This document shows, in pieces, positions 1 to 56,660 of a stretch of 64,000 nucleotides of DNA (position 1 is the first letter of the stretch; each line of letters begins with the position of its first letter). Origin of the DNA: Candidatus Hatepunaea meridiana (GTDB taxonomy: Bacteria > Electryoneota > AABM5-125-24 > Hatepunaeales > Hatepunaeaceae). The stretch covers positions 7,033 to 71,032 of the forward strand of contig JAVCDD010000180.1 of NCBI GenBank assembly GCA_030765125.1, read 5' to 3'. A program made the position numbers and the translations under genes. The notes beneath the pieces are model-generated. The model was not told the origin of the DNA. It made no database searches and saw nothing but the letters and a program-made list of their open reading frames with translations.

Positions 1-3000
1 ATACGGCGCGGGTCGGGATCTTCATCCAGTATTATATCCCCGATATCCTCAATGATTTCAGGTGGATCGTTGACCGGATTGATCACCAACCGGAAGTCCA
101 GATCGGTTGAAGCACCCGGTTCGTCGGTGGCTCGAATGGTAATTTCTACGCCGTCCGGGATATTGTAATTCGGTTCAGGTTCGAAATGCAGTACATTGAA
201 CTGGTCGACCTCCATATTCAACTCTTCTGGAGCGTCGATGACCGAAAAGTTCATTTCGTCTTCTTCTATATCGTAGAACACTTCGTCGAGGTCAGCCACG
301 TCAACCCGGTCAGGGTCTTCGTCAATCCTTATATTTTCAATCTGTTCGACAATCCGCGGTGCATCGTTGATGGCGTTAACGACGACTTCGAAGACGTCTT
401 CCGCCGTTTCTTCACCATCTGAAGCGGTGATCGTAACATCGACGTTCCCGTTCCAATCCGCTTCAGGCTGGACATAGAGCCTGCCCTGTACAATGCGAAT
501 ACTAAGCCCTTCAGCGTCGGACTCCTGGAACTCAAGATCGTCATCATCATCCGGGTCAACGAAGTGATCGTTCAGATCGGCAATTAGCCTTTCACCGTCG
601 TCCTCGTCAAATTCCTGATCGGGGATTTCCTCTACTAATATGGGTGGTTGATTTACGTGACCGACGGTAATATCAACCGTTGCGCGGGTCCTGCGACCTC
701 CCTGGTCACTTACTTCGAAGATCGGGCTGTATTCACCTTCATCATCAAGATCGGTCTGCCAGTTGAATGTGCCCGTGTTATCACCATTATCAGTGAATTC
801 CGCGCCGCGGTCTTCAGTTCCGTCGTCAACCAGCATTAACAGTTCCAGTTCGTCACCTTCAAACTCGATGTCAAAATCGTCAGCGGTCAGAGTGAATTCG
901 ATTTCATCGCCCTCATCAACATTTACCTCATCCAGCGGGTCAACCCAGAAGGGAGGGTCATTGACAGGGGTTATGGTAACCAGGAATACATCGTCAATGC
1001 TGTCATCACGGCGCGGGGAAGAAGAATTTTGGATTTTGGATTTTGAATGTTGAATGTCAGTAGCGTAAGCATTCCCGCTTGCGGAAACCATACACGCTGT
1101 TCGTAGCGCCGACGTCTTAACGGCATTACCGGAATTATAAGATGGTCTGAATACCATTAAGGCTCTACCGCCTTGATCATCGTCTGCTGTTACGGTTACT
1201 TCGAGATCATCACCGTTGAAATTCTCCGGAGCTTCCAACAGCAGCATATTATCATCGTCAATCTCTGCCGTAAGAGGTTCATCCGCTTCAACAGAGAATG
1301 ACAGATCATCGTCATCCGGGTCCTCGAATACCTCATCCAATACTGCGACTTCAAACTGACCGAAGTCCTCGGGTACACGCATATCCGCAATCGGGCTGAC
1401 TACCCGAGGTGGCTGGTTGATGTTGTTAACGGTGATATTAACCGTCAGATCATCGGTTCCATCATCTGTGTCGGTTACGCGGAAGACAGGGGTATAAGGA
1501 TCATCACGACTATCATCAGCGCCAGGCGTCCAGGTAAATTCTGCCGTGCCGTCGTCGTTATCAGCAAATTCCCATCCGTCAGGCAATTCACCTTCGTCGA
1601 ATACCGACCAGACCAGATCGTTGACATCATCTTCAACATCACTTGCCTGGAAGACGATATGGAGTTCTTCCTCTTCAGTAACATCAACGTCAATCTCATC
1701 GCCTAAAGCCTCGCCCTGATCGTCTTCGATAACAGGATCATCGTTAATCGAAAGGACGTTGATCGTGAATTCATCGGTAATTGATTCGTCTCTTCGAGGA
1801 GGAGAAGAATGTAGGATGAATTTTGAATGTTGAATGTTGAATGTTGAATGTTGATTATTGATTCGGGCGGCGATCATAATTCGCTGTCCCCAACTGTCCT
1901 CGGCTTCGATAATCACCTCTGATTCACCGAAGTAGTTCGGATCTGGTTCTACGGACAGGATGTGTGTTTCAATATCAATATTAGCGTTCAATTCTTGAAT
2001 CTCATTAGCTTCGATGATGTCAAACTCTAAATCATCACCATCCGGATCATCGAAAACATCGTCCAGGTCGGCGATTTCGATTACACCGGCGTCCTCGTCA
2101 ATATCTATATCGTCAATCGGATTTACAACTTCCGGAGGACGGTTGAAGTTGCCGACGGCGATGGTGATCTCCAGATCGACATCTTCCTCACCATCGGATA
2201 CCGTGAAGATTGGCGTATATTCACCTTCGTCTTCGAACGTTGTCTGCCAGGTAAAGCTTGCCGTACCGTGCTCGTTATCATTGAGTTCCGCTTCATCCGG
2301 CAGACCACCGCGGTCGCTGAATTCGATGGTCAGATCGTTGTTGTTGTCCACGTCATCCTGGGCAATAAGTTCGAAACGGGCAACGTTTCCTTCGTTTACC
2401 TCGTAACGATTGTCTTCAGGATAGCTCTCCCAGACCGGTGGATCGTTGAGCGGATTAACGGTAACAGTGAATTCATCGGATACGGTCTCGTCGCGGCGGG
2501 GTGGAGGGTTGAAATAGGGGGACAGTATACCTATTTCTGTTAATGGACCATCGTTCTTTTCAAGAGCACTCATGAAATAGGTATACTGTCCCCCTATTTC
2601 TGCGAGGCTTCGAGATGGCTGCACATTAACCATCAAACGCCCACCGTTCTCCTCATCATCTGCTGTCACGGTTACGATTAGATTCTCACCGTAAAAATCA
2701 TCCTCCGGTCTCAACGTCAGGATATTCTCATCGCTGATTTCCAGATTCAGTTCTTCAGTACCTTCCACCGAGAAAGTAAGATCGACGCCGTTCGGATCTA
2801 CGAAAATTTCATCCAGGTCGGCTACCTCCAACAGACCGGAATCTTCGTCGATTTCGACATCGTCAATCGGATTTACAACTTCGGGAGGATCGTTGATGGC
2901 TATGCCGGCGATATCAACCGTCAATTCAGCGTTGTCAGGATCGTTGGAGCTAATTGTTATTACGTCGCGGAACACACCGGCGTCTTCGGGAGCGAAGGTT

Positions 3001-6000
3001 ACAGTCAATTCATAGTTGTCTTCGGATTCAATAGTAAGTTCTTCGGCAAAGTCAAAACTGAAGTCCTCACCATCGGAAGTTATTTCGAATATTGTCAGGT
3101 CTCCATTGCCTTCGTTGCTTATGGTCAATATCAGTTCTTCGCTCTCGTGAATTGAAACGTTGCCAAAGTCCAGAACATTGGGGGATATGACAATTGCAGG
3201 ATGCGGGACAAAGTCTGTTACGTCAATGATTACCAAACCATTCTCACCGTCGGCGACGTATGCCATATCTCCCACGATCTGAACCCGTTTGGATAAGCCG
3301 TCTGTGTTATGGGCAGCAATCTCGCTCATATCTTCGGGGTCGGACACGTCGATAATTCCCAAGCCTTCCTCCCCGTCACAAACAAAGGCACTATTGCCTC
3401 GTACATCGATGCCCGTCGCTTCACCTTCGGTATCAAACGAGCCGACTTCAGCCGGATTTTCAGGATCGGATACATCGACCACAATAAGTCCATCATTCCA
3501 TTGTGCTACATAGGCGTAATCCCCGACGATAACGACATCCCAGGCTTGACCCGGAGTATCAAAGGATCCAATCTCATCCGGGTCCTCAGGATTGGAAACA
3601 TCGATAATACGAAGACCGCCTCCAGCAGCAGCTAAATATGCATAGTTCCCGTTAACGTCGACGCCTCGTGAATTACCCGGTGTTTCGACTGTGCTGATTT
3701 CATCAGGGTTCTCAGGGTCGGAAATGTCAATTATACTAAGTGCACTACTCCCTTGGCTCTCATCTGCTACATAGGCATAATCGCCCTCAACGCAGACATC
3801 CCAGGCATACATTTGCCACCTTTCGAGTGCGCCAACCTCTTCAGGGTTCTCAGGATCGGAAATATCGATTATGCGAAGCCCACTTCCGAAGTCCGCTACA
3901 TAAGCATAGTTTCCGATTACGAAGACCGCGCGAGATGTCCCTGGAGTATTGTAGAATCCGATTTCATCTGGGTTCTCCGGATCGGTTACGTCGATCATGC
4001 GAAGACCGCTGTTTCCATCTGCAACATATGCAAAGTCGTTTACAACAAAAATCCCCTGGGCATCTCCCGGTGTGTCGTAGGAGCCTACCTCGTCAATCTG
4101 CGGCTCCCGTCCTGTGCCGGTCAGGTCAACGGTCAGTTCATCGTTATTGGGATCGTCAGATGAAATGGTCATTGTGGCGGTGAAATCACCGGTTTCTTCA
4201 GGTATAAAGGAAACGATTAACTCGAAACTGCCTTCCGGTTCGATAACTAACTCGTCCTCGAAGTTGCTGCTGAAATAATTTTCATCAATTGAAATATCGG
4301 ATACGGTCAGGTCGGCGTTGCCTTCGTTGCCAATAGTGAGAATCAGATCACTCCGCTGGTGGACTGCCACTCCGCCGAAGTCCAGTGATGCCGGTGTTAC
4401 AGTAATACCTGCTTCCGGTTCTTGATGGAAGTAAAAAGCGCCCATATCCGCCTGTGTTTCATCAGGATCGTCCGGCGCGTCCGGATCACCGGAGTCGATG
4501 CAGGGGCTGTTGCGGGTCAGGGAATAATCATCATTGTCTATGTCCGCGAACAATGGATCGGAATCAATGTTCCCCGCTCCGGCGTATCCACCTTGAATAT
4601 CGGAGTAGGCGATGGTTAAACCAGCAGGAGTAGCTCCCGGTTGGTTACCCCAGAAGATCGAGTTCACGATTTGAGCGGAGGAGTTATCATAAGTATGAAT
4701 TCCACCATTGCCGGTCTCGCCGATGTTGCCGGTTATAGTTACGTTTATCAAAGTGGGATCGCTGTCGTGTGTGCTGTAGATAGCTCCACCCCAACGACGG
4801 GCGTTATTGCCCTGTATCAACAGATGATCCAGCGTCGGGGCAGCGTCATTGATGTATATTCCTCCGCCGTAGTTGGAATTTCCATTGCGGATAGTGAAGC
4901 CCATCAAGACCGCATCTACTCCAATTCCATCGCGCAAAGTAACCACACTGCCACCGGCGTTGCCGTCTATGATGGTCGATTCTATATAAGCCTGATCGCC
5001 GGTAGTCAATAACAGGCTGGCAACGACTATCTCCTTACCAATGAAGTTGATGCGTTCAGAATAGGTTCCGGAATGAACAAGCACGGTGTCACCGTTCTCG
5101 ACGGCGTTGATAGCCGCCTGGATGGTTCCATAGTCATCCGGGACGTTGAACAGATGCCTGCCGGGGATACCAATTCCGGTCAGTTCGATGGTGGTTACCC
5201 TTTCGTCAGGATCGTCCGAAATGAGGGTCATAAAGGCTTCAAAATCACCGATGTCGTCAGGTGTGAAGGTAACAGGCAGAGACGCCTGCCCTTCCGGTTG
5301 GATGACAATGGCGTTCTCGAAAGTCGGTACGAATGTCTCCGATCCGCGGATGGTAACTTCCGAGACGGTAAGATCGGCGGCGCCCTCGTTGCGGATAGTC
5401 AGGATCAGTTCTTCGCTGTCATCTATACTGACCTCGCCGAATTCCAGGATTTCCGGCTCAACGGCAATATCCGGAGCCACACCTGAACCGGTCAAGGTGA
5501 TTGTTATTTCATCCTCTTCAGGGTCGTTGGATGCTATGGTTATTATTCCCTCAAAATCGGCGACAGCATCCGGTGAGAAGGTGACGATCAGGTCGGTGTT
5601 GTCGTCGGGTTCAATATTGATTGCATCTTCAAAATCACTGTTGAAGTTGTCACCTTCAATTGTCACTTCGGATACGGTAAGAGGACCTTCGCCTTCGTTG
5701 CCGATGGTTAAATTCATCCGGGCATTATCATCGATTACAACTTCACCGAAGTCAAGATTGTACGTTGAAACTGTAATTGCCGGGTGCGGCATAAAGTCGG
5801 TCACGTTCAGGATGCGCAGTCCGCTGGCTCCATCAGCAACATAAGCGTGAGTTCCGATCACTGAAACATCGTAAGCCTCGTCAGGCGTGTTATAAGATGC
5901 GGTTTCACCAATATTTCCCAAGTCGGAAATGTCTATTACCTGCAGTCCACTCTCCATATCCGCAACGTAGGCGAATCTTCCCAAAACCGTTACGGCAACG

Positions 6001-9000
6001 GCGCGATCTGGCGTGTCAAGTTCACCGAGTTCTTCAATATTTTCGGGGTCGGATATATCGAGGATATGTAAACCACTCTCGTTGTCTGTAACGTAGGCGA
6101 TAGATTCGATGATGAATATTTCCGTTGCAATGTCGGGAGTATCGTAGCGTCCCGTTTCTTCGATATTCTCAGGATCGGAAATGTTCAATACTAACAATCC
6201 ATTAGCGCCGTCTGCTACGTAAGCATATTCACCAATGACTGTTACAGCGTGCGCCAATCCCTCTGTATTAAAGGATCCAACCTCGCTCGGATGCGCCCTG
6301 TTTGATATATTGACCACCCTCAGACCGCTCTCCATATCTGCTATATAAGCGATTGTGCCGACAACAGCGACATCAACGGCATTTCCGGGAGTGTCGAATT
6401 CACCTGTTGGATTGGGGTCTCCGGGATCAAAGACGTCTATGACTTGTAAGCCGTTTTCATCGGCGGCTACGAAAGCGTAGTCTTCCGACACAACAACGCT
6501 CATTGCGGTTCCGATATCACCGGCTGATGCGACCTCGTCAGGGTTCTCAGGGTCGGTTATGTCTATTACTCTTAAGCCTCCGTCACCATCTGCAACGAAA
6601 GCGAAATCTTCTATGACGGTAACTCCGTAAGCTGTTCCATCGGTGTCATAGTTTCCTACTTCGTCGATGTCCGGTTCGCGTCCGGCGCCGGATAACTGAA
6701 CAATTATTTCACCGTTTTCGGGATCGTTTGAGGTGATGGTTAATGTGCCTTCGAAATCACCTGCTTCTTGGGGGGCGAAGGTGACAGACAGGAATGTCTG
6801 TCCTACCGGGTCGATGACAATGGGGTCTTCGAAGCTGCTACTGAACCAGACTCCTTCAACGGTTACATCGGATACGGTTAAAGGACCGTCGCCTTCGTTG
6901 CTGATGGTGAGTCTTTGATCAATACTGCGTTCTATCTGTATAGCGCCGAAGTCCAGTTGTTCCGGTTCAACGACTATTATTGGAACTACGCCTGTGCCGG
7001 TTAATGCTATGGCTATTACCTCTTCATCCGGATCATCAGAGGATATGGTCAGTGTTGCTTCAAAATCACCTGATTCCTGTGGAGCGAAAGTAACGGTCAG
7101 ATCGAATTCCTCATCCGGTTGGATGACGAACGCTTCGTCGAAGTCGCTGCTGAAGTAATTCCCTTCAATTGCGATGTCAGAGACGTTCAATTCAACCAAA
7201 CCATCATTGCTTAATGTAAGCGTCAGATCAGCGCTCTCGCCTCCTGACACCTGACCGAAGTTCAATTCATTCGGATTAACCATTAGATTCGGTTCTTGCG
7301 CCTGGTGGTAGTAGAGTGCGCCCATATCGGCGCGGGTTTCGTCCGGGTCTTGATCGGCGTTGGGATCACCGGTGTCGACGCAGGGGCTGTTGCGCAAGAT
7401 TTGGTAGTCGCTGTTGTCTGCATCGGCAAATAAGGGATCTTCCTCGATGTTGCCTGCACCGGCATAGCTGCCTTCAATATCTGAGAAGGTGATCGTCATA
7501 CCGTTCTGCAGATCAGGCGGTTCGTTGCCCCATATAATAGAATTAATCACCTGAGCACTCGCTCCACCGCCGCCGATGCCAATAGCAGCGTTGTCGCTGT
7601 TTGCAGTGTTACCGGAGATGGTTACGTTGACGAGAATGGGAATGGAACCGCTGGTGGCGTATAGCCCACCGCCGCGTCCACTGGCGACGTTGTCGACTAT
7701 AGCGAGGTGATCGAGCGTGGGCGTGGTCTGATCGCCGTTGCAATAGATACCACCGCCCCAATCGGTGTCGGCATTTCTAACGGTAAAGCCGGTCAGGATT
7801 GCCGCTTCCGTTTCACCGTTGCGGAAGACGACCGTACTCCTGCCGTTTGCGCCGCCGTCAATTATGGTCGATTCGATGTATTCAGCCTCACCTGTGGTCA
7901 GGTACAGACTGCCGACGGTTACGTCTATGCCGTTGAAGTTGACGTTCTCTTCGTAGGTGCCGGGTTGAACCAGCACGATGTCACCGGCTATGGATACGTC
8001 GATTGCTTCCTGGATGGTTTCATAGTCATCCGGCACGTTGACGGTGCGCGCTTCGGTCTCTATACCGGTGCCACTCAAATCAACGGTTACTTCTCCTTCA
8101 TCGGGATCGTCGCTGGTTATGGTCAATACAGCTTGCAGATCGCCTGTTTCACCGGGCAAGAAGGTTACATTAACTTCAGAACTTTCGTCCGGTTGGATGA
8201 CAATGGGGTTTAAAAAGTCGCTGCTGTAGTAGGCGCCTGCAATCGTTATATCGGAGACGGTCAGTTCGATATTGCCTTCGTTAGAGATAGTTATGGCTAA
8301 CTGGGACGACCTGCCCATTTCAGTTTCAGGGAAGGCGAGGGCTTCGGGATCAACGGCGATGTCAGGTGTAAGTCCCGATCCGGTTAAGGGGATGTTTATC
8401 TCACCCTCATCGGGATCATTGGACGTTATGGTCAGCGTTCCTTCGAAATCACCGGTTTCATTCGGCTGGAAGTTTACGTTGAACTGCCGGTTGCCGTCCG
8501 GTGCAATTACGAATTCCTCCTCAAAGTCCGAGGAGAAATATTGACCTTCGATGGAAATATCCGAAACAGTAAGATCGGAATTTCCATCATTGGTGATTAT
8601 CAATGGCAGAGTGGATATTTGTCCCACCAGGCAGTCGCCAAATGGGAAGGAATTGCGGTTAACGGTAATATCCGGCGCCACGCCTGAACCGCTTAGCGCA
8701 ACCTCAACCTCCGGATCGTCCGGATCATCGGAAAGTATAGTCAGGGTTGCATCAAAATCGTTCACCTCTTCCGGCGCGAACGTAACGGTCAGCTCAAAGT
8801 CCTCAAACGGTTGGATGACGATTTCTTCATCAAAATCGGTCAGGAATGTCTGCGCTCCCCGGATTGAAATATCCGAAATGGTCAATTCCCAGTTGCCATC
8901 GTTGCTGATGGTTAACGTCAGGTCTTCAGTTTCACCGGTTACAACCTCACCGAAGTCGAACGCTTCGTCTGAAAGGGTGATTTCGGGGTATTGGACGAAG

Positions 9001-12000
9001 TCGGAGACGTCGAGGATTAATAAACCGTTATTCCCATCAGCCACATATGCATAGTTTCCTACAACAGAAACATCCCAAGAATGTTGAGTTCGGTGATTAC
9101 CAACCTCATCAGGATTCTCAGGATCTGAAACATCTATTAAACGTAGACTGCTTTGACCGGCGGGAGTAAAGCATGCAACATAAGCTATGTTACCTACAAC
9201 AGTTAAGTCTCGAGCATAATCACGTGTATCTTGAGATCCAACTTCGACCAATTCATCTGGGTTAGAAATATCAATAATTCTTAGACCTTCTGTATAATCT
9301 GCTACATAAGCATAGTTTTCTATGACTGAAACACCCAGAGCTGCACCTGGAGTATCATATATTCCTAATCCTCCAAGGTTACGAGCATTAATCAATATTA
9401 AACCTGTCTGATTATCTGCAACATAAGCGATCTCATCAACTATCACAACATCCCGTGCGATTTGCGGCGTGTTAAATGAACCGGTTAATCTTGGATCTTC
9501 AGGGTCGGATATGTTAATAGCTTGCAAACCGCTACGTCCATCAGCTATGTAAACATAATCTCCGCTGACCGCAATACCTTCTGCCCAATCAGGAGTATCA
9601 CAGCTTCCTATTTCATCAGGTTCCTCAGGATTAGACACATCAATAATACGGAGACCGCTCTCGTAATCCGCTACAAATGCCAAATTATCCGAAACCACCA
9701 CATCATAGGCATTTCCTGGAGTTTCACAGAAACCTATCTCATCTGGATTCTCTGGATCAGAGATATCTATTATCCGTAGACCCCCTGCATTATCTGCTAA
9801 ATAGGCAATATCCCCGACAATATCTATACCAAATGTTACACCATTAGTATTATAATGCCCCACTTCCGGTATCGCCGGTTCCCTGCCGACTCCCACCAAT
9901 GCAACATCCACTTCCCCATTATCCGGGTCGTCGGAAGTTATGGTCAGTGTCCCCTCGAAGTTGTTCTCGCTGTCCGGTGTGAACCGAACGGGTAGTTCGA
10001 AGGTGGCGTCCGGTTCGACGATCATCTCTTCATCGATATCCTCAAAGATACTGCTGAAGTTGTCGTGTCCGATTGATATATCGGATATGGTCAGGTCGCC
10101 GTCACCGTCGTTGCCGATGGTCAGGATGAGCTCGACGGTCTGGTCGATTACGACCTCGCCGAAGTTCAGCGATTCGGGATCATGCGTGAGGATAGGCGCA
10201 ACGCCCAGTCCGCTTAAGTTCACATCCAATTCTCCATTATCCGGATCATCGGATGTTATGGTCAGCGTTGCCTGCAGGTCTCCGGTCGCGTCAGGTGCAA
10301 AGGTTACGGTCAGTTCATAGGGCTCGTCCGGTTCGATGACGACCTCACCGTCGAAGTCGCTGGTGAAGTAGTCACCCGCGATTGATATGTCGGAAACGGT
10401 CAGAGGCGCGCGTCCCTCGTTGTTATCAATAGTGAGAATCATATCTGTCTCGTGACCGACTACCGTGTTGGGGAAGACAAGCTCTGCCGGTGTTACAGCG
10501 ATAACGGGAGCCGCTTCCTGGAAGAAGTAGAGGGCGCCCATATCGGCGCGCGTGGTGTCGGGGTCTTCGGGAGCGTCGGGATCGGCTGCGTCAACGCAGG
10601 GGCTGTCCTCAGTGATGTAGAAGTCGTTGTTGTCTGTGTCAGCGAAAATGGGATCGGAATCAAGGTTGTCTACTCCAGCGTAACCGCCCTCGATGTCGCA
10701 GTATGCAACGGTCAATCCGTTCGGCATTCCGGCGGGTTGGTTGCCCCAGACGATTGAGTTTCCGATAGTGGCTGAGGCGCCTGCAAAGATATTAATAGCG
10801 CCGACCTCTTCGTTTGCCGTGTTGCCGTAAAGGGTTATAAAGTTCAGATCAGGATTGGCGTTGTTGGTGGCGTAGATACCTCCACCGCGGCTGGTGGAGC
10901 TGTTTCCGTAGATTACCAGATGATCCAGCGTCGGGCTCGCGTCGTTGATATAGAGCCCACCGCCGAAGTCGGTTGAGCCGTTGCGAATGGTGAAGCCTAT
11001 CAGTTCCGCTTCGTCTGTCTCACCGTTGCGGAAGGCGACTACACTACGCCCGTTGTCGCCGCCGTCGATTATGGTTGAGGCTATGTCATCCGGATCGTCG
11101 CTCTCGATATATTGGCTGGCAACCGTGATGTTTTTGCCGCGGAAATTGATGTTCTCATTATAAACACCGGGGTCGACCAGAACGCGGTCGATGTCAATGG
11201 CTTCGTCAATGGCTGCCTGGATGGTCTCGAAGTCATCAGGGACGTTGTATTCGCGGGGCTGTGCTTCGATGCCGGTTCCTGACAGGGCAACAGCAAGCTC
11301 ACCGTTGTCGGGATCGTCTGAGGTGATGGTCATAGTGGCTTCGTGGTCACCGGTCTCGGTGGGGGAGAAAACGACAGACAGGAATGTCTGTCCTACCGGT
11401 TCTATGATTATTTCGTCTGTAAAGTCGCTGCTGAAATAATCCCCTTCAAAGGTTACGTCTGTAATGTACAGGTCTGTATCGCCGGTGTTGCTGATGGTTA
11501 TGACAGACAAGGATGTCCGTCCCACCTCAGTATCAGGGAATCCAATGGCTTCGGGGTCTATGGTGATTTCGGGGTATTCTACGATGCCGCCGGTAACTTC
11601 GGAACAGTTGAAGATGTAAAGCCCTTCATCCTCATCGGTGATATAGGCGTAATTGCCGGATACATACAAGCCGATAGCGTAGCCTGGAGTGTCGTGGAAA
11701 CCAATCTCTTCCGGTTCGGCAGGGTTTGAAACGTCTATCAAGCGCAATCCCTCGTCACCATCGGCAACATAAGCGAAATCATGCGCGACAAAGACGCTTT
11801 CGGATGAGCCGGGAGTGTTTACAAAGCCGACCTCTTCCGGTTCTGCGGGGTTTGATACGTTTATAATGCGAAGTCCACTGCCTGAAGCGGCGACATAAGC
11901 ATAGTCACCGGCTGCGAAAACTCCATAGGCACGACTCGGCATTTCGAGATTGCTCACTTCATCCGGATTTTCCGGGTCGGACACGTCGATTATGCGCAGT

Positions 12001-15000
12001 CCACCGGCTTGATCTGCAAGATAAGCGTAGTCACCTGAAACGTAAACTGAAAAAGCTTGACCGGGTGTGTCGAACGCTCCAATCTCATCGGGATCATCGG
12101 GGTTGGAGACATCAATTATACGCAGACCGCTGGCGCCGTCTGCAACGTAGGCAAGATTGTCTTTGTAATAAACAGCATACGCGGCACCCGGGGTGTCGAA
12201 GGTTCCGACCTCATTGGGATTTTCGGGGTCTGAGATGTCGATTATGCGCAGTCCGCTGGCAGCGTCCGCAACGTAAGCATACGAACCAGCAACGTCTATG
12301 CCGGTTGCTTCACCGGGGGTGTCGTAGGAACCGACAGCCTGCGGTTGACCGGGGTCGGATACGTCGACAATCTGCATACCTTCCCAGTAGTCAGCTATGT
12401 AAGCCAGCCCTCGCGAGACGTAGACGCCTTCGGACATTCCGGGCGTTTCGTAATGACCTACCTGCCGGATCTGCGGACCGGTTCCGATGCCGGTTAAATC
12501 AACTTCAATCTCCTCGTTTTGAGGGTCGTTGGAGGTGATGGTCAGTGTGCCAGCGTAATCGATTGTTTCTACAGGTGTAAATGTTACGGTCTGTTCGATG
12601 CTGTTGTCGGGTTCTATGGTGATTTCGTCCTCAAATACGGTTTGGAATACTTCGTCACCCTGAATGGTAATATCAGTGATGATAAGATCCTCATTTCCTA
12701 CATTGGTGATGGTGAGGATAAGATCGCGGTCAATGTCAATGGCAGACTCGCCGAAGTCGAGCGCACCCGGTGAGATCCTGATAGTCGGAGGCTGGGGTTG
12801 CTGTTGGTAGTAGAATGCGCCCATATCGGCACGTGTTTCATCGCTATCCTGGGGCGAGTTCGGATCACCGACGTCTATACAGGGGGAGTCTTCGGTCAGT
12901 TGGAAATCATCATTGTCAAAGTCGGCAAATAAGGGATCCTGATCGATGTTGCCGGCGCCGTTATAACCACCCTGAACGTCAGAATAGGTAATGGTTTGTC
13001 CACCAGGAAGCGCTGCCGGGGTGTTTCCCCAGAATATCGAGTTGACTGCCTGTGTTTGAGCGCCACCCCCTCCAACACCTATTCCGCCGTTACCGCCATC
13101 GGCGTCGTTGTTGGTGAATGTTATGTTATTCAGGAGCGGTTGCGCACCAGTGGTGACATAGATGCCTGCACCTCGTCCGCTGACGTGATTGCCTGTTATC
13201 AATAGATGATGCAATGTAGGATTAGCGCCACGGATGTAAGAGCCGCCGCCGAAGTCGGTATCTGCATTGCGGATTGTGAAGCCTGCGAGGACAGCTTCGT
13301 TTGTCTCACCGTTGCGGAAGACCGTTACGCTTCTGCCGTTGGCGTCACCGTCGATAATGGTCGAAGCGATGTAATCAGGATCACCGGTTGTGATATAGAG
13401 GCTGCCAACGACGATATTCTTACCAATAAAGTCAATGATCTCAGTATAGGTTTCAGGTTGAACCAGTACTGTGTCACCGTCAGCAGCGTTGTCGATTGCT
13501 TCCTGGATGGTGTCGTAGTCGTCCGGAACGTTGATTATAAAATCTCGTCCCGATCCGGAAAGAGCTACTGCGAGATCCTCGTTCTCAGGATCGTCAGATG
13601 CTATGGTAAGTGTTCCAACGAAATCATCAATGTCATCCGGTGAGAAGGTTACGGTTAATTCGCGACTTTCATTCGGTTGGATGACGATCTCATTCTCGAA
13701 ATCGCTGATGAAGTTGTCCCCTTCAATAGTTATATCGGATATAGTCAGATCACCGAAACCGGTGTTGCTGATAGTGAGTATCAGGTCTGCTTCGTCGTCA
13801 ATCGGAACAGCACCGAAGTCCAGGGCATCCGGAGATACGTCAATAGCGGGGATCGCTTCGACACCGATTCCGGTCAGGTTCACATCCAGGTTCTCGTTAT
13901 CCGGATCGTTAGATGTGATTACAAGCGTGCCGGCGAGATCACCGGTATCATCCGGCTGGAAGGTGACAGTTACATCAGAAGTGTTGCCCGGTTCGATGAC
14001 CACTTCATTCTCGAAATCTGAACTGAATATGTCTCCTTCAATAGTAATATCCGAGACATTCAGGTTTTCACGTCCTCTATTTCGGATGGTTAGAATCAGA
14101 TCGGCGCTCTGGTCGACTACTACCTCAGCAAAGTCAAGCGCTTCAGGAGAAACAACGATGCTCGGTCCCTCTGCCTGGAATAACGGGAATGTTCCCATAT
14201 CGGCGCGTGTGCCGTCCGGGTCTTCGGGTGCATCAGGATTGCCTGTATCTTTACAGGGGCTGTCATCGGTCAGGTGAAAATCATCATTGTCGGGATCAAC
14301 GAACAATGGATCTGTATCTATGTTGCCTCTGCCGTTATAACCGCCCTGGATATCAGAGAATGTGATCGTCTGGTTGGCGGGAATATCTGGTGGGGCATTA
14401 TCCCAGAATATGGAGTTTACAATAGTAACCACTGATCCACCGAAAACATCCAGAACACCGTTGTTTTGCTCAGAATCATTGCGGGTCAGGGTAACGTTTG
14501 TCATCGTAGGACTACCGCCGCCATAGGCAATTATCGCACCGCCCCATCTTACGGTATGGTTATCGGTGATCAATAAATGATCCAGTATCGGGCTGCCGCC
14601 ATTACAGAGTATTCCCCCTCCGAAATCAGCGGCGCCGTTGCGAATTGTAAAACCGGACAGGATGGAATTCACTGTCTCACCGTTGGCAAAGGTTACAACG
14701 CTAGTGTTATTAGCATCGCCATCGATTATGGTTGATTCAACGTAATCCGCATCACCTGTAGTAATAAACAGGCTGCCTACAATGATTTCCTTGCCGTTAA
14801 AGTTGATGTTTTCTGTGTATGTCCCGGGCGCTACCAAAACAGTATCCGTGTCGATGGCATTATCAATAGCTTCCTGTATAGTATCGAAATCATCAGGCAC
14901 ATCGTGTACATGATCGAGCGGTTCGATGCCAGTTCCAGTTAAAGCGACGTCAACTTCTTCTTCATTCGGGTCATCGGATGTAATAGTGAGCGTTCCCTGG

Positions 15001-18000
15001 TAATCTTCTATATCATCAGGTGCAAACGTTACCGTAACATCATAACTGTTGTCCGGTTCGATTACGATTTCATCTTCTTCGAAGTCGTGCGTGAAAACAT
15101 CACCTTCAATAGTGATGTCAGTTACGGTCAGATCGGTACGACCATTATTCCTGATTGTGAGCGACAGTTCAGCGCTCAATTCAAGCTCAACCTCTCCAAA
15201 GATAAGTTGAGCCGGTATTACCGATATGTTTGGCTCTTCCGGCAGCTCGAAGTAGAAGGCGCCCATATCATTGCGTGTTTCGTCAGGATCCTGTGGTGAA
15301 TTCGGATCACCTGCATTTATACAAGGGGAGTCTTCAGTTAATTGGAAATCATCATTATCAAAGTCGGCAAATAAGGGATCGGAATCAAGATTCCCTGCTC
15401 CGGCGTATCCACCCTGAACATCGGAATATGTAATAGTCTGACCGCCAGGAAGCGCTGCAGGTGTGTTTCCCCAGAATATCGAGTTGATTACCTGGGTTTG
15501 AGCGCCGCCCCCACCGACTCCGATTCCACCGTTGGCACCGTCGGCATCGTTGTTGGTGAATGTTATGTTATTCAGGAGCGGTTGTGCTCCGGTAGTGGCA
15601 TAAATCCCTGCGCCGCGTCCGCTGACATGGTTGGCGGTTATTAATAGGTGGTGCAATGTTGGACTGGCGTCACGGATGTATGAGCCGCCTCCGAAGTCGG
15701 TATCTGCATTGCGAATTGTGAAACCGGCAAGGACGGCTTCGTTTGTCTCGCCGTTGCGGAAGACCGTTACGCTTCTGCCGTTGGCGTCACCATCAATAAT
15801 GGTCGAAGCGATATAGTCGGGATCACCTGTGGTGATATACAAACTGCCGACAACGATGTTCTTGCCAATAAAGTCAATGATTTCAGTATAGGTCTCAGGT
15901 TGAACCAGCACCGTGTCGCCGTCAACAGCGTTGTCGATTGCTTCCTGAATGGTATCGTAGTCATCCGGAACATTGATTATGTAATCCCGTCCCGATCCTG
16001 AAAGAGCAACAGCGAGATCCTCGTTCTCCGGATCGTTAGATGCTATGGTTAACGTTCCATTAAAATCACCAACGTCATCCGGTGAGAAGGTCACATTTAA
16101 TTCATAGCTGTCATCCGGTTCGATTACAACCTCATTCTCGAAATCGCTGATGAAATTGTCACCTTCAATGGTTACATCGGATATAGTCAGATCACCGAAG
16201 CCGGTGTTGCTGATGGTTAGTATCAAGCCTGCCTCGTCGTCAACCGGAATTGCTCCAAAGTCCAGCGCATCCGGCAATACTACTATTGCAGGAATCGCTT
16301 CGACACCGATTCCGGTCAGGTTCACCTCCAGATCTTCATTGTCCGGATCGTTGGATGTGATTACAAGCGTACCAGCGAAATCTCCGGTAGCATTCGGCTG
16401 GAAGGTAACGATTACTTCAGAAGTGTTGCCTGGCTCGATGACTACTGCATTCTCAAAATTGCTGCGGAAGTTATCCCCCTCAATTGTTATATCGGATACC
16501 CTTAAGTCTTCACGTCCTCTATTTCGGATGGTGAGCGTCAGATCAGCGCCCTGGTCGACTACTACCTCAGCAAAGTCGAGAGCTTCAGGGGAAACAACGA
16601 TACTTGGTCCTTCAACCTGGAACAGCGGGAATGTTCCCATATCAGCGCGTGTGCCGTCCGGGTCTTCGGGTGCATCAGGATTGCCTGTGTCTTTACAGGG
16701 ACTGTCATCGGTCAGGTGAAAATCATCATTGTCGGGGTCAACGAACAATGGGTCTGTATCTATATTGCCTCTGCCGTTATAACCGCCCTGAATGTCGGAG
16801 AAGGTGATTGTTTGGTTAGCCGGTATATCAGGTGGGTCGTTATCCCAGAATATGGAGTTTACAATAGTAACCACTGATCCACCGAAAACATCCAGAGTGC
16901 CGCTATTTTGCTCGGAATCATTACCGGTCAGGGTAACGTTTCTCATCGTAGGACTACCGCCGCCATACGCAATTATCGCACCGCCCCATCTGACGGAATG
17001 GTTGTCGGTGATCAATAAATGATCCAGCATCGGGCTACCGCCATTACAGAGTATTCCCGCTCCGAAGTTAGCACCGCCATTGCGGATAGTAAAACCTGAC
17101 AGGACGGAATTCACTGTCTCACCGTTGGCAAAAGTTACTACGCTCGTGATATTCCCATCACCGTCAATAATTGTTGATTCGACGAAATCTGCATTACCTG
17201 TTGTAATAAATTGACTGCCGACGACGATTTCCTTGCCGCCAAAGTTGATGTTTTCAGTATAAGTTCCGGGCGCTACCAACACAGTATCCGTATCGATGGC
17301 GTTATCGATGGCTTCCTGAATGGTATCGTAGTCGTCGGGAACGTTGATCCTGAAACTTCTCCCGATTCCAGAAAGAGCGACAGCCAACTCTTCGTTCTCC
17401 GGATCATCTGATGCAATAGTAAGTGTCCCATTAAAATCACCTACGTCATCAGGAGAGAATGTAACCGTTAATTCATAACTGTCATCCGGTTCGATTACAA
17501 CCTCATTCTCAAAGTCGCTGCTGAAGTTATCGCCTTCAAAGGTAACGTCCGAAACGGTCAGGTCACCGAAACCCACGTTGGCGATAGTGAGTATCAGATC
17601 CGCATCGCCGTTAACCACTACCGCACCGAAGTCCAAAGCATCTGGAAATGGATCAATAGAAGGGATAGCTTCCACGCCGATTCCTGTCAGATTAACCTCC
17701 AATTCCTCGTTATCCGGATCATTGGATGTAATTACAAGCGTTCCGTTAAAATCACCTGTATCATCAGGCTGGAAAGTGACAGTTACTTCATAAGTGTTGC
17801 CCGGCTCGATGTCCACTTCATTATCAAAATCGCTTCTGAAGATGTTCCCCTCAATCGTTATATCAGATACATTTAAGTCTTCGCGTCCCCTGTTTCTGAT
17901 AGTGAGCGTTAGATCGGCACTCTGGTCGACTACAACCTCAGCAAAGTCAAGCGCTTCAGGAGAAACAACGATACTTGGTCCCTCTGCCTGGAATAGTGGG

Positions 18001-19862
18001 AATGTTCCCATATCGGCGCGTGTGCCGTCCGGGTCTTCTGGGGAGTCAGGATCACCTGTATCGATACAGGGGCTGTCGTCAGTCAGGTGATAATCATTAT
18101 TGTCGGGATCGGCAAATAAAGGATCCGTGTCGATGTTGCCTGCACCTGCATACCCACCCTGGACATCGGAGTAGGTAATCGTTTGATTGGCTGGTATATC
18201 GGGTGGATCGTTATCCCAGAAAATCGAGTTAACCATATTAACAACTGCACCGCTGAAAATGCTCAAAGCTCCGTTGCCTTGATCGGCGCTATTGCCTGTT
18301 AAGGTGATGTTTCGTATAGTAGGGCGGGCGTTGGCGTAAGCAATTATTCCTCCGCCTCGATTGACGGCGTTGTTGCCGGTTATCAGGAGATGATCCAGCG
18401 TCGGGGCAGAACCATTACAGAGTATTCCCGCTCCGAAGTTAGCCCTGCCATTGAAGATAGTAAAACCTGACAGGATGGAGTTCACTGTCTCACCGTTGGC
18501 AAAGGTTACTACACTCGTGTTATTCGCATCGCCGTCAATAATAGTTGATTCAACATAATCCGCATCACCCGTTGTAATAAAAAGGCTGCCGACAAGGATT
18601 TCCTTGCCGCTAAAGTTAATATTCTCCGTGTAAGTTCCGGGAGCAACCAGTACAGTATCCGTATCAAGCGCATTATCAATAGCTTCTTGTATAGTATCAT
18701 AATCATCCGGCACGTCTATTCTGTGATCGCGGGGTTCTACGCCCGTTCCTGTTAAAGCAACGTCAAGTTCTTCCTGGTCCGGGTCGTCGGAGGTAATAAT
18801 TAGCGTTCCCTGATAATCCTGCGTTTCCTCAGGGGCAAAGGTTACAATTACATCATAACTGTTATCCGGGTCGATAACTACTTCATCTTCTTCAAAGTCA
18901 TGCGTGAAACCATCTTCATGAATGGTAATATCCATTACAGTCAAGTCGGTGCGTCCAATATTGCTTATAGTAAGAGTTAATTCAGCGTTTTGTTCAAGCT
19001 CAACATCCCCAAAGTTAAGCTCAGCCGGTGACACGGCAATATTCGGTTCTTCCGGCTGATCGAAGTAGAACGCGCCCATATCGGCGCGTGTCTCGTCGGG
19101 ATCATCGTCTGAATTGGGGTCTCCGGTGTCAATACAGGGGGAGTTCTCTGTGATGTAAAAATCACCTTCACCAGGATCGACAAACAACGGATCCTGGTTG
19201 ATGTTTCCATTACCGGCATAACCACCCTGGATGTCGGAATATGTAACGGTCATCCCATTGGGTCTTCCGGCGGGTTGGTTGCCATAGGATATGCAGTTGA
19301 CCATATTAGCCGAGGCGCCGCCGTAGACATGAATTCCCCCATTGCCGCCTTCAGCCGTATTGTTGGCAATCGTAATGTTGGTCAAACTGGGAAGAGCGTC
19401 GCTGGTGCAATAGATGCCACCTCCCCACCTGGCAGCGTGGTTTCCGGTAATGAGCAGATGATCCAGCGTCGGTCGAGCGTTGTTAATGTATAGTCCACCA
19501 CCGTAATTTGCCGAACCGTTTGTGATCGTAAGACCAATCAACCGCGCTTCCGCGCCTACACCACCGCGAATTGAAACAATAGTACCACCACCACCGCCAT
19601 CGATGATAGTATTTTCGATGTGCTCCGGATCGTTTTCGTTCAGGTAGAGACTGGCAACGGTGATTTCCTTATCCAGGAAATTGATGTTTTCAACGTATCT
19701 ACCGGGCTGAATCAGCACGACATCGCCGTCTTCAGCTTCGATTATCGCTTCCTGAATGGTTTCAAAGTCGTCAGGAACGTTTATCACCTCAGCGTAAACG
19801 GTTGATACACCTGTGATTATTGCAAGTATAAAAGTAATAATTAGAGGAAATTTAGGACGCAT
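1..19862 (-). CDS. Giant secreted multidomain surface protein; N-terminus complete, C-terminus beyond the left window edge (>=6620 codons)
   Basis: Absent from the ORF track, which appears to list only ORFs with a stop in the window. The ATG is at 19862-19860 on the minus strand, followed by the signal-like peptide [24 protein letters not shown]. I hand-translated 1-2700 codon by codon and read through the rest. The nine V-P-D-D module starts (first bases 19778, 18713, 17342, 15971, 14900, 13529, 11243, 8036, 5144) and the RRD codons at 2498 and 1796 all share one phase (coordinate mod 3 = 2). A stop in that phase would have produced a listed ORF starting at 19862, and none is listed. Confidence 0.85.
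   Translation of the reverse strand, partial: [6620 protein letters not shown]
1026..1060 (-). repeat. Heptanucleotide tandem repeat (TGGATTT)2(TGAATGT)2, in frame in the giant ORF
   Basis: Units attttgg (1026-1032, 1033-1039), attttga (1040-1046), atgttga (1047-1053) and atgtcag (1054-1060). Verified translation is ...[22 protein letters not shown]. Confidence 0.8.
1817..1865 (-). repeat. Heptanucleotide tandem repeat (TGAATGT)4 plus degenerate flanking units, in frame in the giant ORF
   Basis: Perfect units lie at 1824-1830, 1831-1837, 1838-1844 and 1845-1851. Degenerate units are tgaattt (1817-1823), tgattat (1852-1858) and tgattcg (1859-1865). The stretch translates on the minus strand as [28 protein letters not shown]. 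Confidence 0.85.
2511..2600 (-). mobile_element. 90-bp palindromic element (family A, GGGGACAGTATACC core) lying in frame inside the giant ORF
   Basis: The perfect 27-bp arms are gaaatagggggacagtatacctatttc (2511-2537) and its reverse complement (2574-2600). The arms are identical to the intergenic copy at 23858-23944. The 36-nt loop resembles that copy's loop in inverted orientation. Codon-by-codon translation gives [31 protein letters not shown] with no stop. Confidence 0.75.
3215..4110 (-). repeat. LVIVD-repeat beta-propeller block 4
   Basis: Repeats such as [25 protein letters not shown] and [25 protein letters not shown]. Confidence 0.7.
5795..6685 (-). repeat. LVIVD-repeat beta-propeller block 3
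   Basis: Repeats such as [24 protein letters not shown] and [23 protein letters not shown]. Confidence 0.7.
6783..6809 (-). repeat. REP-like 27-mer (GTAG head + GACAGACA/TGTCTGTC hairpin) inside the giant ORF
   Basis: The plus strand reads gacagacaggaatgtctgtcctaccgg. The minus strand reads ccGGTAGGACAGACATTCCTGTCTGTC and codes PVGQTFLSV within an Ig-like domain. It is identical to 11373-11399 and near-identical to intergenic copies at 35287, 35349 and 56611. Confidence 0.8.
9000..9885 (-). repeat. LVIVD-repeat beta-propeller block 2
   Basis: Repeats such as [25 protein letters not shown] and [25 protein letters not shown]. Confidence 0.7.
11373..11399 (-). repeat. Second identical copy of the REP-like 27-mer inside the giant ORF
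   Basis: Same 27-mer as 6783-6809, coding [15 protein letters not shown]. A degenerate relative, gacagacaaggatgtccgtcccacc, lies at 11501-11525. Confidence 0.8.
11600..12475 (-). repeat. LVIVD-repeat beta-propeller block 1
   Basis: Translation shows about 7 repeats of the form AYVAD..[24 protein letters not shown], matching my memory of the PF08309 LVIVD consensus. Confidence 0.7.
12465..17348 (-). repeat. Tandem duplication, two units of 2442 bp (beta-helix + 2 Ig + beta-helix + 1 Ig) inside the giant ORF
   Basis: Module starts 17342/14900 and 15971/13529 are each exactly 2442 bp apart. A 60-nt stretch I compared (16981-17040 vs 14539-14598) matches at 55/60. The antisense shadow ORFs 13531..14277 and 16150..16719 have near-identical translations. 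Confidence 0.8.
17349..18719 (-). repeat. Partial third copy (1371-bp sub-unit: beta-helix + 2 Ig) of the tandem repeat
   Basis: The module start at 18713 lies 1371 bp from 17342. The shadow ORF 17794..18090 is near-identical in translation to the corresponding parts of 16150..16719 and 13531..14277. Confidence 0.7.
19794..19862 (-). other. Predicted signal peptide of the giant ORF
   Basis: Translation [32 protein letters not shown] has a basic N-terminus, a hydrophobic core and a VYA-type cleavage motif. No predictor was run. Confidence 0.55.
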
Positions 19863-20078: not shown

Positions 20079-20317
20079 GATTCCTTGATTCCTGTGAATA
20101 GATTTACCAATAGGTGTGAATCAGATTCGCATTTGAAAGGATAAAAACGTGTTCAGTTTAAACTGTTAGAGGATATGCTTTGAGTTACCAGTAGGAAGAA
20201 ATGATAACTTGAAACAGATAATAATAACCTAATAAGATGTGCAAAAACCTTGCCGGTTTATTCTATCACTGCGTTGAAAGGAAGCGTCGGGAAGGGCAGA
20301 CATTCTTGTCCGTCACG

Positions 20318-56562: not shown

Positions 56563-56567
56563 TGTTT

Positions 56568-56610: not shown

Positions 56611-56660
56611 GTAGGACAGACATTCCTATCTGTCGGTAGGTTGGACACTCCTGTCCGACA
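56611..56660 (+). repeat. Two tandem REPs with GTAG heads (type 1 then type 2)
   Basis: GTAGGACAGACATTCCTATCTGTC (56611-56634) is followed by GTAGGTTGGACACTCCTGTCCGACA (56636-56660). Confidence 0.8.

What the first reader, a model, noticed from the sequence alone, without database searches (positions are those of the whole stretch)
11373..11525. Second REP 27-mer copy plus a degenerate relative 100 bp away in the same Ig-like domain
11373-11399 is identical to 6783-6809 and codes IEPVGQTFLSVVFSP. At 11501-11525, gacagacaaggatgtccgtcccacc codes EVGRTSLSVI at the start of the same domain. One Ig domain thus holds two hairpin-capable segments of the same family. These could pair in the mRNA or template recombination between distant Ig domains 4.6 kb apart.
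Basis: seen in the sequence. Interest (0 to 1): 0.5.

Follow-up and report, generated by a model that had tools for sequence, protein, structure and literature searches.

The report
REP palindromes written into Ig-domain codons
Two perfect copies and two degraded copies of a small selfish palindromic repeat that normally lies between genes sit in-frame inside a giant surface-protein gene, where they encode a beta-strand without changing the domain's length; this is an unusual variant of a phenomenon that is already known.

Summary
11373-11399 and 6783-6809 are an identical 27-mer.

Both lie on the minus strand in a giant ORF (window 3-19862, >6600 aa) of Candidatus Hatepunaea meridiana. The ORF contains 21 HYDIN/ASH-type Ig-like domains.

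The shared block is not paralogue conservation. Outside it, the two domains are 58.5% identical, which is the family average, and they are not sister copies. At the same 24 nt, 18 of the other 19 copies match at chance level (5-12/24).

The block is a 24-nt GTAG-type REP: GTAG, an 8-bp stem and a YTCY loop. Its other copies in the window are intergenic. The same core occurs in MAGs of many phyla, sometimes next to RAYT transposase genes.

In ORF1 it reads VGQTFLSV, a turn plus a beta-strand, with no length change. The degenerate copy (20/24) and a fourth site at 5271-5294 keep all 8 stem pairs.

Best reading: REP sequence copied into codons by short templated replacement and tolerated. The copying mechanism is inferred, not shown. 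Intragenic REPs are known, but as insertions. mRNA cross-pairing is not predicted. Recombination could not be tested.

The parts
11373..11396 (-). Perfect 24-nt GTAG REP (GTAG GACAGACA TTCC TGTCTGTC), in-frame in Ig domain A. It encodes VGQTFLSV. The identity to the other copy extends to 11399 through the conserved Pro codon CCG.
   Evidence: Hairpin of -11.8 kcal/mol. Encodes the turn plus the start of strand 60-67 in the AF2 model.
6783..6806 (-). Second perfect 24-nt REP, at the homologous position (motif 2) of Ig domain B. The identity extends to 6809.
   Evidence: Hairpin of -12.7 kcal/mol.
11502..11525 (-). Degenerate REP-like hairpin GTGG GACGGACA TCCT TGTCTGTC. It matches the core 20/24, is in the same frame, and encodes VGRTSLSV in the first long strand of domain A.
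   Evidence: All four differences from the consensus preserve the structure.
5271..5294 (-). Fourth in-frame REP-like hairpin, GAAG GGCAGGCG TCTC TGCCTGTT (EGQASLPV), at the same motif-2 position of the domain at aa 4813-4912. It matches the core 16/24, but all 8 stem pairs form, including one compensatory A-U to G-C change.
   Evidence: (-11.0 kcal/mol).
11271..11567 (-). Ig-like domain A (ORF1 aa 2780-2878), HYDIN/VesB/ASH/DUF1573 type.
   Evidence: Pfam, self-HMM, alignment, AF2 pLDDT 96.9.
6681..6977 (-). Ig-like domain B (ORF1 aa 4310-4408).
3..19862 (-). Giant ORF1. It is more than 6600 aa and runs off the window start. It has a signal peptide, 21 Ig-like domains, LVIVD repeats, beta-helix units and C-terminal cadherin-like repeats.
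35253..35362 (.). Intergenic REP cluster downstream of the 4817-aa ORF: 35253-35276(-), 35287-35310(+) and 35339-35362(-). The last two form an inverted REPIN-like doublet.
56611..56659 (+). Two tandem intergenic REPs (56611-56634 and 56636-56659) downstream of the 1830-aa ORF.
50422..50445 (+). Intergenic REP of another stem subfamily: GTAG ATGCGACA CTCC TGTCGCAT.
20291..20314 (+). Intergenic REP-like hairpin GAAG GGCAGACA TTCT TGTCCGTC, upstream of ORF1.

Best explanation
The 27-mer is a 24-nt member of a GTAG-type REP family (repetitive extragenic palindrome, the kind mobilised by RAYT Y1 transposases) plus the domain's own conserved Pro codon. The REP is GTAG, an 8-bp stem, a YTCY tetraloop and the return stem.

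Shown:
- REP-family sequence sits in-frame on the coding strand at four places in ORF1.
- Two copies are perfect and lie at the homologous position of two non-sister Ig domains. One is 20/24 and lies in the first long strand of the same domain as a perfect copy. One is 16/24 and lies at the homologous position of a third domain.
- At all four sites, 8 codons are replaced with no change in domain length.
- The only sense frame that is both stop-free and suited to a beta-strand is the one used (VGQTFLSV). It encodes a turn plus the first six residues of a strand.
- All four sites keep a full 8-bp hairpin.

Inferred:
- The sequence arrived by short, templated, length-neutral copying from genomic REPs. 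This could be gene conversion, template switching or strand swapping.
- Native partial similarity may have helped: CCGG at the 5' edge and CTG-NCN-GT at the 3' edge.
- The copies did not arrive by transposon-style insertion.
- They persist because the encoded peptide fits the fold in a highly redundant, repeat-tolerant adhesin-like gene. On this view they are passengers that form hairpins of about -12 kcal/mol in mRNA or ssDNA, with no demonstrated benefit to the host.
For: Foreign to the domain family:
- Outside the 27-mer, domains A and B are 58.5% identical. The mean of all 210 pairs is 58.9%, and this pair ranks 94th.
- Domain A's sister copy is aa 3849-3947 (76% bootstrap), which matches the REP only 8/24. 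A and B are sisters in 1.5% of bootstraps.
- At the homologous 24 nt, 18 of the other 19 copies match the REP 5-12/24. The 19th is the 16/24 site at 5271-5294.
- Among conserved residues outside the block, codon identity is 26/45, so nine identical codons in a row has a probability of about 0.007.

Member of a REP family:
- Intergenic copies matching 22-23/24 lie at 35287, 35339 and 56611, and stem-variant copies at 35253, 56636 and 50422.
- Across 13 copies, 97.9% of stem cells are paired, 5 of 8 pairs show double changes, and 0 of 500 shuffles reach this.
- About 7 copies lie in 5.8 kb of intergenic DNA, against 2-4 in 58 kb of coding DNA.
- The same core is present in at least 119 loci from many phyla, almost all extragenic and often as inverted doublets.
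- RAYT genes lie within about 120 nt of the core in four loci.

Length-neutral and structurally tolerated:
- There is no gap at any of the sites in the 21-copy alignment.
- The AF2 model of domain A has pLDDT 96.9, with the REP-encoded residues inside strands 19-26 and 60-67.

Directional change at the degenerate site:
- Of the 10 differences from the sister copy, 9 are toward the REP (p = 3.6e-4). The 3 non-REP bases are shared with the sister. This mosaic pattern is what patchy conversion would give.
- All differences between the degraded copies and the consensus preserve the stem.

Precedent:
- Intragenic GTAG REPs are described in PMC3733652.
- In-frame REP or REPIN copies of this same family occur in L112 and L125.
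Against: - No donor-recipient pair or orthologue is available to show the state before the change. No close homologue of ORF1 was retrievable, and short-read assemblies of the same strain break at the gene.
- No RAYT gene lies in the 64-kb window, and the rest of the genome could not be examined.
- Only 2-4 nt of microhomology exists at the patch edges, far below what RecA-dependent conversion normally needs.
- Known intragenic REPs, and the L112 and L125 cases, are insertions rather than replacements.
- Full stem preservation in the two degraded copies could instead mean that the hairpin is under selection in place, which is a functional reading.
- The domain tree rests on about 260 nt, and the deeper nodes are weak.
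Confidence: 0.55

Rival explanations
1. The hairpins are functional and kept by selection inside the 20-kb gene. Possible roles are mRNA-stabilising or processing barriers, DNA-gyrase or nucleoid-protein sites in a very long transcription unit that has no intergenic space, or ribosome pause sites that help domain folding.
For: All four in-frame sites keep 8/8 stem pairs, including G-U-compatible and compensatory changes. All lie on the coding strand. Extragenic REPs flank every giant gene in the window. REPs elsewhere are credited with roles in mRNA stability and supercoiling (PMC3733652).
Against: The neighbouring 14.4-kb ORF with related domains has none. An 8-bp hairpin is a weak barrier to a ribosome. 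Intact stems are equally expected if each site is a fairly recent copy of an intact REP variant. Three of the four sites cluster in one domain clade rather than being spaced along the gene. No expression data are available.
Confidence: 0.15
2. Each REP entered by ordinary RAYT or transposition-type insertion, adding 8 codons. A later 8-codon deletion of the now redundant native strand restored the domain length.
For: This family does insert in-frame with a length increase elsewhere: REP arrays plus a RAYT in L112, and a REPIN in a T9SS C-terminal domain in L125. ORF1 itself carries insertion-type palindromic elements in its C-terminal repeats.
Against: It needs two precise events at each of four sites. 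No intermediate with extra length is seen in any of the 21 copies. The degenerate site keeps three bases shared with its sister copy inside the patch, which a clean insertion plus deletion would not leave.
Confidence: 0.15
3. Only one site acquired the REP. The second perfect copy arose by short-tract gene conversion between the paralogous Ig domains, so the 27-nt identity reflects homogenisation within the gene.
For: The domains are paralogous and in the same frame. The identity tract includes the domain's own CCG codon. ORF1 shows much recent duplication or homogenisation elsewhere.
Against: The tract ends exactly at the 3' end of the REP and within 3 nt of its 5' end, and the flanks are about 40% divergent right up to it. 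This does not explain the third and fourth REP-like sites, which differ in sequence. It still needs a first length-neutral acquisition.
Confidence: 0.1
4. The block is ordinary conservation or convergence of a protein motif in the Ig-domain family, or an assembly artefact, with no link to REP elements.
For: Motif 2 of HYDIN/ASH domains has a P-x-G-x-S/T-x-x-L-x-V pattern, which VGQTFLSV satisfies.
Against: The block is 24/24 identical to a core found in intergenic DNA of this window and of many phyla. Most other copies of the domain match at chance level. Synonymous sites are all identical. Both flanks align in-frame to the domain family, so there is no chimeric join. Independent assemblies of the same strain are 100% identical where they overlap.
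Confidence: 0.03

Closest known systems
Intragenic GTAG/CGTC REPs (Di Nocera, De Gregorio and Rocco 2013, BMC Genomics 14:522; PMC3733652)
   Same: These are GTAG-tagged palindromic repeats that are mostly extragenic but occasionally lie wholly inside ORFs and are translated. Sometimes they occur twice in one ORF. They are interpreted as tolerated in modular proteins.
   Different: Those cases are described as insertions. More than half are dimers or groups that add 20-30 aa or more, and they are thought to sit in linkers or loops, notably in DNA repair and replication genes. Here, single 24-nt units replace 8 codons in register inside core beta-strands of an Ig-like domain, with no length change, at homologous positions of paralogous domains.
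Rickettsia palindromic elements (RPE), inserted in-frame in protein-coding genes (from my own knowledge, Ogata et al. 2000; cited in PMC3733652)
   Same: Small palindromic repeats found in-frame inside functional genes and translated.
   Different: RPEs are 100-150 bp insertions that add a peptide segment. The Ig-domain REPs here add nothing. The RPE analogy fits the 90-nt palindromic element at 2511-2600 and the other C-terminal inserts of ORF1 better.
REP/REPIN-RAYT systems (REPtrons) of Proteobacteria (Nunvar 2010, Bertels and Rainey 2011 and Ton-Hoang 2012 from my own knowledge; PMC5581495 and PMC3733652 in the library)
   Same: A GTAG head, a short imperfect palindrome with compensatory variation, inverted doublets, location downstream of genes, and association with an IS200-like Y1 transposase.
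   Different: The core found here is shared nearly unchanged by MAGs of many phyla (Acidobacteriota, Planctomycetota, Bacteroidota, Zixibacteria, KSB1, Electryoneota and others), whereas most described families are confined to a genus or order. RAYT linkage was shown only in other genomes, not in this window.
Gene conversion or mosaicism among tandem Ig-like repeats of bacterial giant adhesins (general knowledge)
   Same: Short identical tracts shared by otherwise diverged repeat units of one gene.
   Different: The donor sequence here is not a paralogous repeat unit. It is an unrelated, genome-wide non-coding repeat.

Membership tests
GTAG-type REP (RAYT-associated repetitive extragenic palindrome) | Conserved unpaired 5' tetranucleotide GTAG (GT[A/G]G) | tested here: met
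   Both perfect ORF1 copies and 6 intergenic copies start with GTAG. The degenerate copy has GTGG. The sites at 5271 and 20291 have GAAG.
GTAG-type REP (RAYT-associated repetitive extragenic palindrome) | Short stem-loop kept by compensatory changes among copies | tested here: met
   The stem is 8 bp and the loop is YTCY. 97.9% of cells are paired, 5 of 8 pairs have changes on both sides, and 0 of 500 shuffles reach the observed covariation. Slid controls give 23-46% paired.
GTAG-type REP (RAYT-associated repetitive extragenic palindrome) | Multi-copy and predominantly extragenic, near the 3' ends of genes | tested here: met
   In the window, about 7 copies lie in 5.8 kb of intergenic DNA, against 2-4 in 58 kb of coding DNA. 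Of 145 matches in other genomes, only those in L112 lie in a credible ORF. The whole-genome copy number for this organism could not be obtained.
GTAG-type REP (RAYT-associated repetitive extragenic palindrome) | Inverted doublets (REPIN/BIME-like) | tested here: met
   35287-35310(+) and 35339-35362(-) form a doublet in the window. Many +/- pairs 30-80 nt apart occur in other genomes, and there is one in L125.
GTAG-type REP (RAYT-associated repetitive extragenic palindrome) | Cognate RAYT (IS200-like Y1 transposase) gene flanked by the REPs | tested here: inconclusive
   A Y1_Tnp domain flanked by these REPs is present in L112. Homologues 45-49% identical lie within about 120 nt of the core in L043, L013 and L065.
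In-frame palindromic insertions (RPE-like / intragenic REP inserts) | The element adds extra residues relative to homologues that lack it | tested here: not met
   The REP-bearing Ig domains are 99 aa (100 aa for the fourth-site domain, aa 4813-4912, whose extra residue lies away from the REP site), within the 99-102 aa range of the other copies, and have no gap at the sites. The feature is met for other elements in the same ORF: C-terminal units are 133-152 aa, against 95-99 aa for units without the insert, and the 90-nt element has an 88-nt intergenic twin.
HYDIN/VesB/CFA65-like (ASH, DUF1573) Ig-like domain | Profile match above the curated threshold and a beta-sandwich fold | tested here: met
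   PF22544, PF15780 and PF07610 all score far above their cut-offs. The AF2 model is all-beta with 9 strands and pLDDT 96.9.
Diversity-generating retroelement variable region (considered because it also involves length-neutral replacement in surface proteins) | A template repeat / variable repeat pair of about 100 nt that differs at adenines, plus a nearby reverse transcriptase | tested here: not met
   The patch is 24 nt. The copies are identical rather than adenine-mutated. No reverse-transcriptase domain appears among the window ORFs that were scanned.

The most novel reading that the evidence does not exclude
REP elements of this family can spread by a length-neutral 'overwrite'. A RAYT-type cleave-and-rejoin, or a hairpin-driven template switch, would swap a canonical 24-nt REP into any proto-REP-like site, including codons. 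On this reading REPs act as a source of templated, in-register rewriting of beta-strand coding sequence. This would also explain the concerted evolution of REPs in general. A related possibility is that the in-gene hairpins are themselves selected.
Probability: 0.2. Interest if true: 0.75.

Novelty: new variant of a known kind. Interest (0 to 1): 0.5.

Why it matters
How REPs multiply is still unclear. RAYTs cleave and rejoin REP DNA in vitro, but no insertion pathway has been shown.

Four in-frame, length-neutral REP patches in one gene argue for a copying route that replaces sequence rather than inserting it. One of the four is a mosaic with its native sequence. If correct, this is a new way for selfish repeats to rewrite coding sequence, and a candidate mechanism for REP homogenisation.

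It also shows that a REP reading frame can supply a working beta-strand, so giant repeat proteins may act as sinks for such elements.

In practical terms, the same 24-nt core in many phyla is a useful marker for a widespread REP/RAYT family that, as far as my text searches show, has not been described. Embedded palindromes of this kind can also confuse repeat-based gene annotation.

Tried and rejected
- Paralogue conservation was rejected. The flanks are at the family-average 58.5% identity, and 18 of the other 19 copies match at chance level.
- Sister-copy inheritance was rejected. Domain A's sister lacks the block, and A and B are sisters in only 1.5% of bootstraps.
- Search for Ig-embedded copies elsewhere. 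A metagenome scan for the REP core plus domain context returned only 2 extragenic chance hits.
- Search for orthologues of ORF1. The first protein search was dominated by LVIVD repeats, with a best hit of 53% identity over 39% of the query. The last search, with a 63-aa REP-centred query, found no candidate at all. It should at least have retrieved translated REPs, so I treat it as uninformative.
- Recovery of the source contig. Only short-read contigs of the same strain were found. They are 100% identical to the window and break at 19408 and about 35623, at the giant genes. P0004 was not on record.
- Rfam gave no family in the window.
- Literature string search for the REP core returned only unrelated primer hits.
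- In-frame REPs in other genomes. Long ORFs spanning the core in L004, L062, L089, L028, L095 and L100 look like spurious high-GC ORFs.
- A DGR-type mechanism was considered and rejected (see the membership test).
- mRNA cross-pairing of the two hairpins is not predicted.
Full report
**Observation**

The 27-mer GACAGACAGGAATGTCTGTCCTACCGG occurs exactly twice in the window, at 6783-6809 and 11373-11399. Both copies lie in a minus-strand ORF that is open from 19904 to the window start. Its start codon is at 19862, followed by a signal-peptide-like N-terminus.

On the coding strand the block reads CCG GTA GGA CAG ACA TTC CTG TCT GTC, which is PVGQTFLSV.

It encodes EVGRTSLSVI in the same domain.

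**Gene and organism**

- ORF1 is built from HYDIN/VesB/ASH/DUF1573-type Ig-like domains, LVIVD repeats, beta-helix units and C-terminal cadherin-like repeats.
- A self-built HMM finds 21 copies of the roughly 99-aa Ig domain in ORF1, and 16 more distant copies in the neighbouring 4817-aa ORF.
- Several neighbouring proteins carry T9SS sorting domains.
- A 404-aa protein of the window is 100% identical to an NCBI protein of Candidatus Hatepunaea meridiana (Ca. Electryoneota, FCB group), on a 74.6-kb contig.
- Short-read contigs of the same strain from two metagenomes are 100% identical to the window and break at the giant genes.

**The block is foreign to the domain family**

- In a codon alignment of the 21 copies, the two REP-bearing domains are A (aa 2780-2878) and B (aa 4310-4408). 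Outside the 27-mer they are 58.5% identical. The mean of all 210 pairs is 58.9%, and this pair ranks 94th.
- Identity drops to 40-60% immediately on both sides of the block.
- Other exact runs of 24 nt or more occur only in pairs at least 76% identical.
- At 20-nt resolution, nearly all exact repeats belong to the recently duplicated 12.9-18.5 kb block. The 27-mer is the only run of 23 nt or more outside it.
- At the homologous 24 nt, 18 of the other 19 copies match 5-12/24, which is chance level. They encode the family consensus D-x-S-Y-E-L-T-V. A and B encode VGQTFLSV with no gap.
- With the block removed, domain A's sister is the copy at aa 3849-3947 (76% bootstrap), which matches only 8/24. 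A and B pair in 1.5% of bootstraps.
- Among conserved residues elsewhere, only 26/45 codons are identical between A and B, so nine identical codons in a row has a probability of about 0.007.

**What the block is**

Near-copies of the 27-mer (24/27) are intergenic, at 35284-35310, 35339-35365 and 56608-56634. They sit in clusters of similar elements.

All share one layout: GTAG, an 8-bp stem, a YTCY loop and the return stem. The stem variants are GACAGACA/TGTCTGTC, GTTGGACA/TGTCCGAC and ATGCGACA/TGTCGCAT.

Across 13 copies, 97.9% of stem cells pair, 5 of 8 pairs show changes on both sides, and no shuffle or slid register comes close.

One pair in the window, 35287(+) and 35339(-), is an inverted doublet. 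Density is about 7 copies in 5.8 kb of intergenic DNA against 2-4 in 58 kb of coding DNA. These are the defining features of GTAG-type REPs.

They come from Acidobacteriota, Planctomycetota, Bacteroidota, Zixibacteria, KSB1, Chloroflexota, Verrucomicrobiota, Nitrospirota and others. The loops are TTCC (82), TTCT (34), CTCT (10) and CTCC (10).

Almost all of these matches are extragenic.

In L112 the REPs flank an IS200-like Y1 transposase (Pfam Y1_Tnp). Homologues 45-49% identical lie within about 120 nt of the core in three other phyla. The family is therefore RAYT-associated, although no RAYT lies in this window. Rfam has no model for it. Text searches for the sequence returned only unrelated primers.

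**More sites in ORF1**

- The degenerate copy GTGGGACGGACATCCTTGTCTGTC (11502-11525, minus strand) matches the core 20/24. The other 20 domains match 8-12/24 at that position, and no shuffle reached 20/24. It is in the same frame (VGRTSLSV).
- Its four differences are one in the tag, one A-to-G that keeps a G-U pair, and two in the loop.
- Against its sister domain, 9 of 10 differences are toward the REP (p = 3.6e-4). The three non-REP bases are shared with the sister. This mosaic is what patchy templated conversion would give.
- A fourth site, 5271-5294(-), is GAAGGGCAGGCGTCTCTGCCTGTT (EGQASLPV). It lies at the same motif-2 position of the domain at aa 4813-4912. It matches only 16/24 but forms all 8 pairs, including a compensatory A-U to G-C change, and folds at -11.0 kcal/mol.
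- The homologous segments of the remaining copies fold at 0 to -6.8 kcal/mol at motif 2, against -11.8 and -12.7 for the perfect REPs. At motif 1, one other copy (aa 4207-4305) reaches -10.5 with an unrelated sequence.

**Protein context**

An AlphaFold2 model of domain A, built with the 21 copies as the alignment, is an all-beta domain with pLDDT 96.9. The REP-encoded residues are the turn (V-G) plus the first six residues of strands 19-26 and 60-67. They are core strand residues, not loop.

Of the three sense frames, one contains the TAG stop. Frame 0 gives the alternating pattern VGQTFLSV, which fits the domain's P-x-G-x-S/T-x-x-L-x-V motif.

**RNA**

The 191-nt mRNA segment containing both sites of domain A is predicted to form two independent local hairpins, not a pairing between them.

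**Interpretation**

I regard it as shown that REP-family sequence is embedded in-frame, without length change, at four places in ORF1.

How it arrived is inference. Transposon-like insertion is contradicted by the unchanged length at all four sites. Simple paralogue conversion does not explain the origin of the sequence or the variant sites.

I favour short templated replacement from genomic REPs, followed by tolerance. Native similarity at the edges may have helped: CCGG at the 5' edge and CTG-NCN-GT at the 3' edge.

Stem preservation in the degraded copies leaves room for a functional hairpin. Insertion plus a compensating deletion cannot be excluded.

**Comparison with the literature**

Di Nocera et al. 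2013 (PMC3733652) describe GTAG and CGTC REPs inside ORFs in several species. These are insertions that add 20-82 aa. The authors suggest they may sit in flexible linkers or loops. They also recall the Rickettsia RPEs. They note that some GTAG families occur in evolutionarily distant organisms.

The phenomenon is therefore known. The register-preserving replacement of a beta-strand at homologous positions of paralogous domains is the new feature.

**Verdict**

It is a new variant of a known kind and of moderate interest.

Noticed in passing
window 2511-2600 (in ORF1, minus-strand coding) and 23857-23944 (intergenic): A 90-nt palindromic element with 27-nt perfect terminal inverted repeats (GAAATAGGGGGACAGTATACCTATTTC) is translated in-frame in a loop of a C-terminal cadherin-like repeat of ORF1. 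Its intergenic twin is 88 nt, so only the coding copy has a length divisible by 3. This is an RPE-like in-frame insertion.
   Followed up: partly
window 1021-1083 and 1801-1865 (ORF1 C-terminal repeats): Two more loop inserts of 32-53 aa are made of tandem 7/8-mers (GGATTTT, GAATGTT). In the first, a GTAG hairpin (GTAGCGTAAGCATTCCCGCTTGCG) follows on the antisense strand. Units without inserts are 95-99 aa, against 133-152 aa with them. The layout resembles the intergenic cluster at 56563-56660, which has tandem GGTGTCGT 8-mers followed by REPs.
   Followed up: partly
L112:2365-7296 (Guaymas MAG QNEE01000060.1): A 1643-aa ORF encodes a Type ISP restriction-modification enzyme (N6_Mtase, Type_ISP_C). 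It is interrupted in-frame by several arrays of this REP family (VGQTFLSV / EQAGMPVLP peptides), a QTQQP repeat and a whole RAYT (Y1_Tnp) gene, all in one frame.
   Followed up: partly
L125:6115-6172 (GCA_964606695.1, an organism with T9SS-type proteins): An inverted REP doublet of the same family lies in-frame inside the T9SS C-terminal sorting domain of a GH57 protein (..AVTIS-VEQTFLSV-QNA-GQTGMSGLP-MEIEIFD..). A second small palindrome (GAGAAATCT...AGATTTCTC) lies further downstream in the same domain.
   Followed up: partly
loci L001-L119 (genome-contig scan): The same 20 specified bases of the REP core occur in MAGs of many phyla. The RAYT genes next to them in four of these loci (L112, L043, L013, L065) are only 45-49% identical. 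REP families are usually far more lineage-specific. It is not resolved whether this reflects horizontal spread of the REPtron or strong constraint.
   Followed up: no
loci such as L068, L069, L062, L085: In several genomes a long open frame ends exactly at the TAG of the REP's GTAG head. The REP may therefore supply the stop codon of the upstream gene, as reported for other GTAG REPs. I did not check whether these frames are real genes.
   Followed up: no
window 8835-8858 (minus strand, ORF1 domain aa 3642-3741): GGAGCGCAGACATTCCTGACCGAT (GAQTFLTD) matches the REP 17/24 and contains the exact 12-nt core CAGACATTCCTG. It could be a further relic or chance.
   Followed up: no
window 19408 and about 35623: Independent short-read assemblies of the same strain (ENA ERZ27315452, JGI 3300025649) end at these points, just inside or next to the giant repeat genes. 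These genes are therefore systematically missing from such assemblies.
   Followed up: partly
window 35560-35630: A long perfect palindrome (GTTGCGTCAGGTGTTAACACCTGACGCAAC) with a partial upstream duplicate lies immediately downstream of the stop codon of the 4817-aa ORF. It is probably a terminator, distinct from the REP cluster.
   Followed up: no
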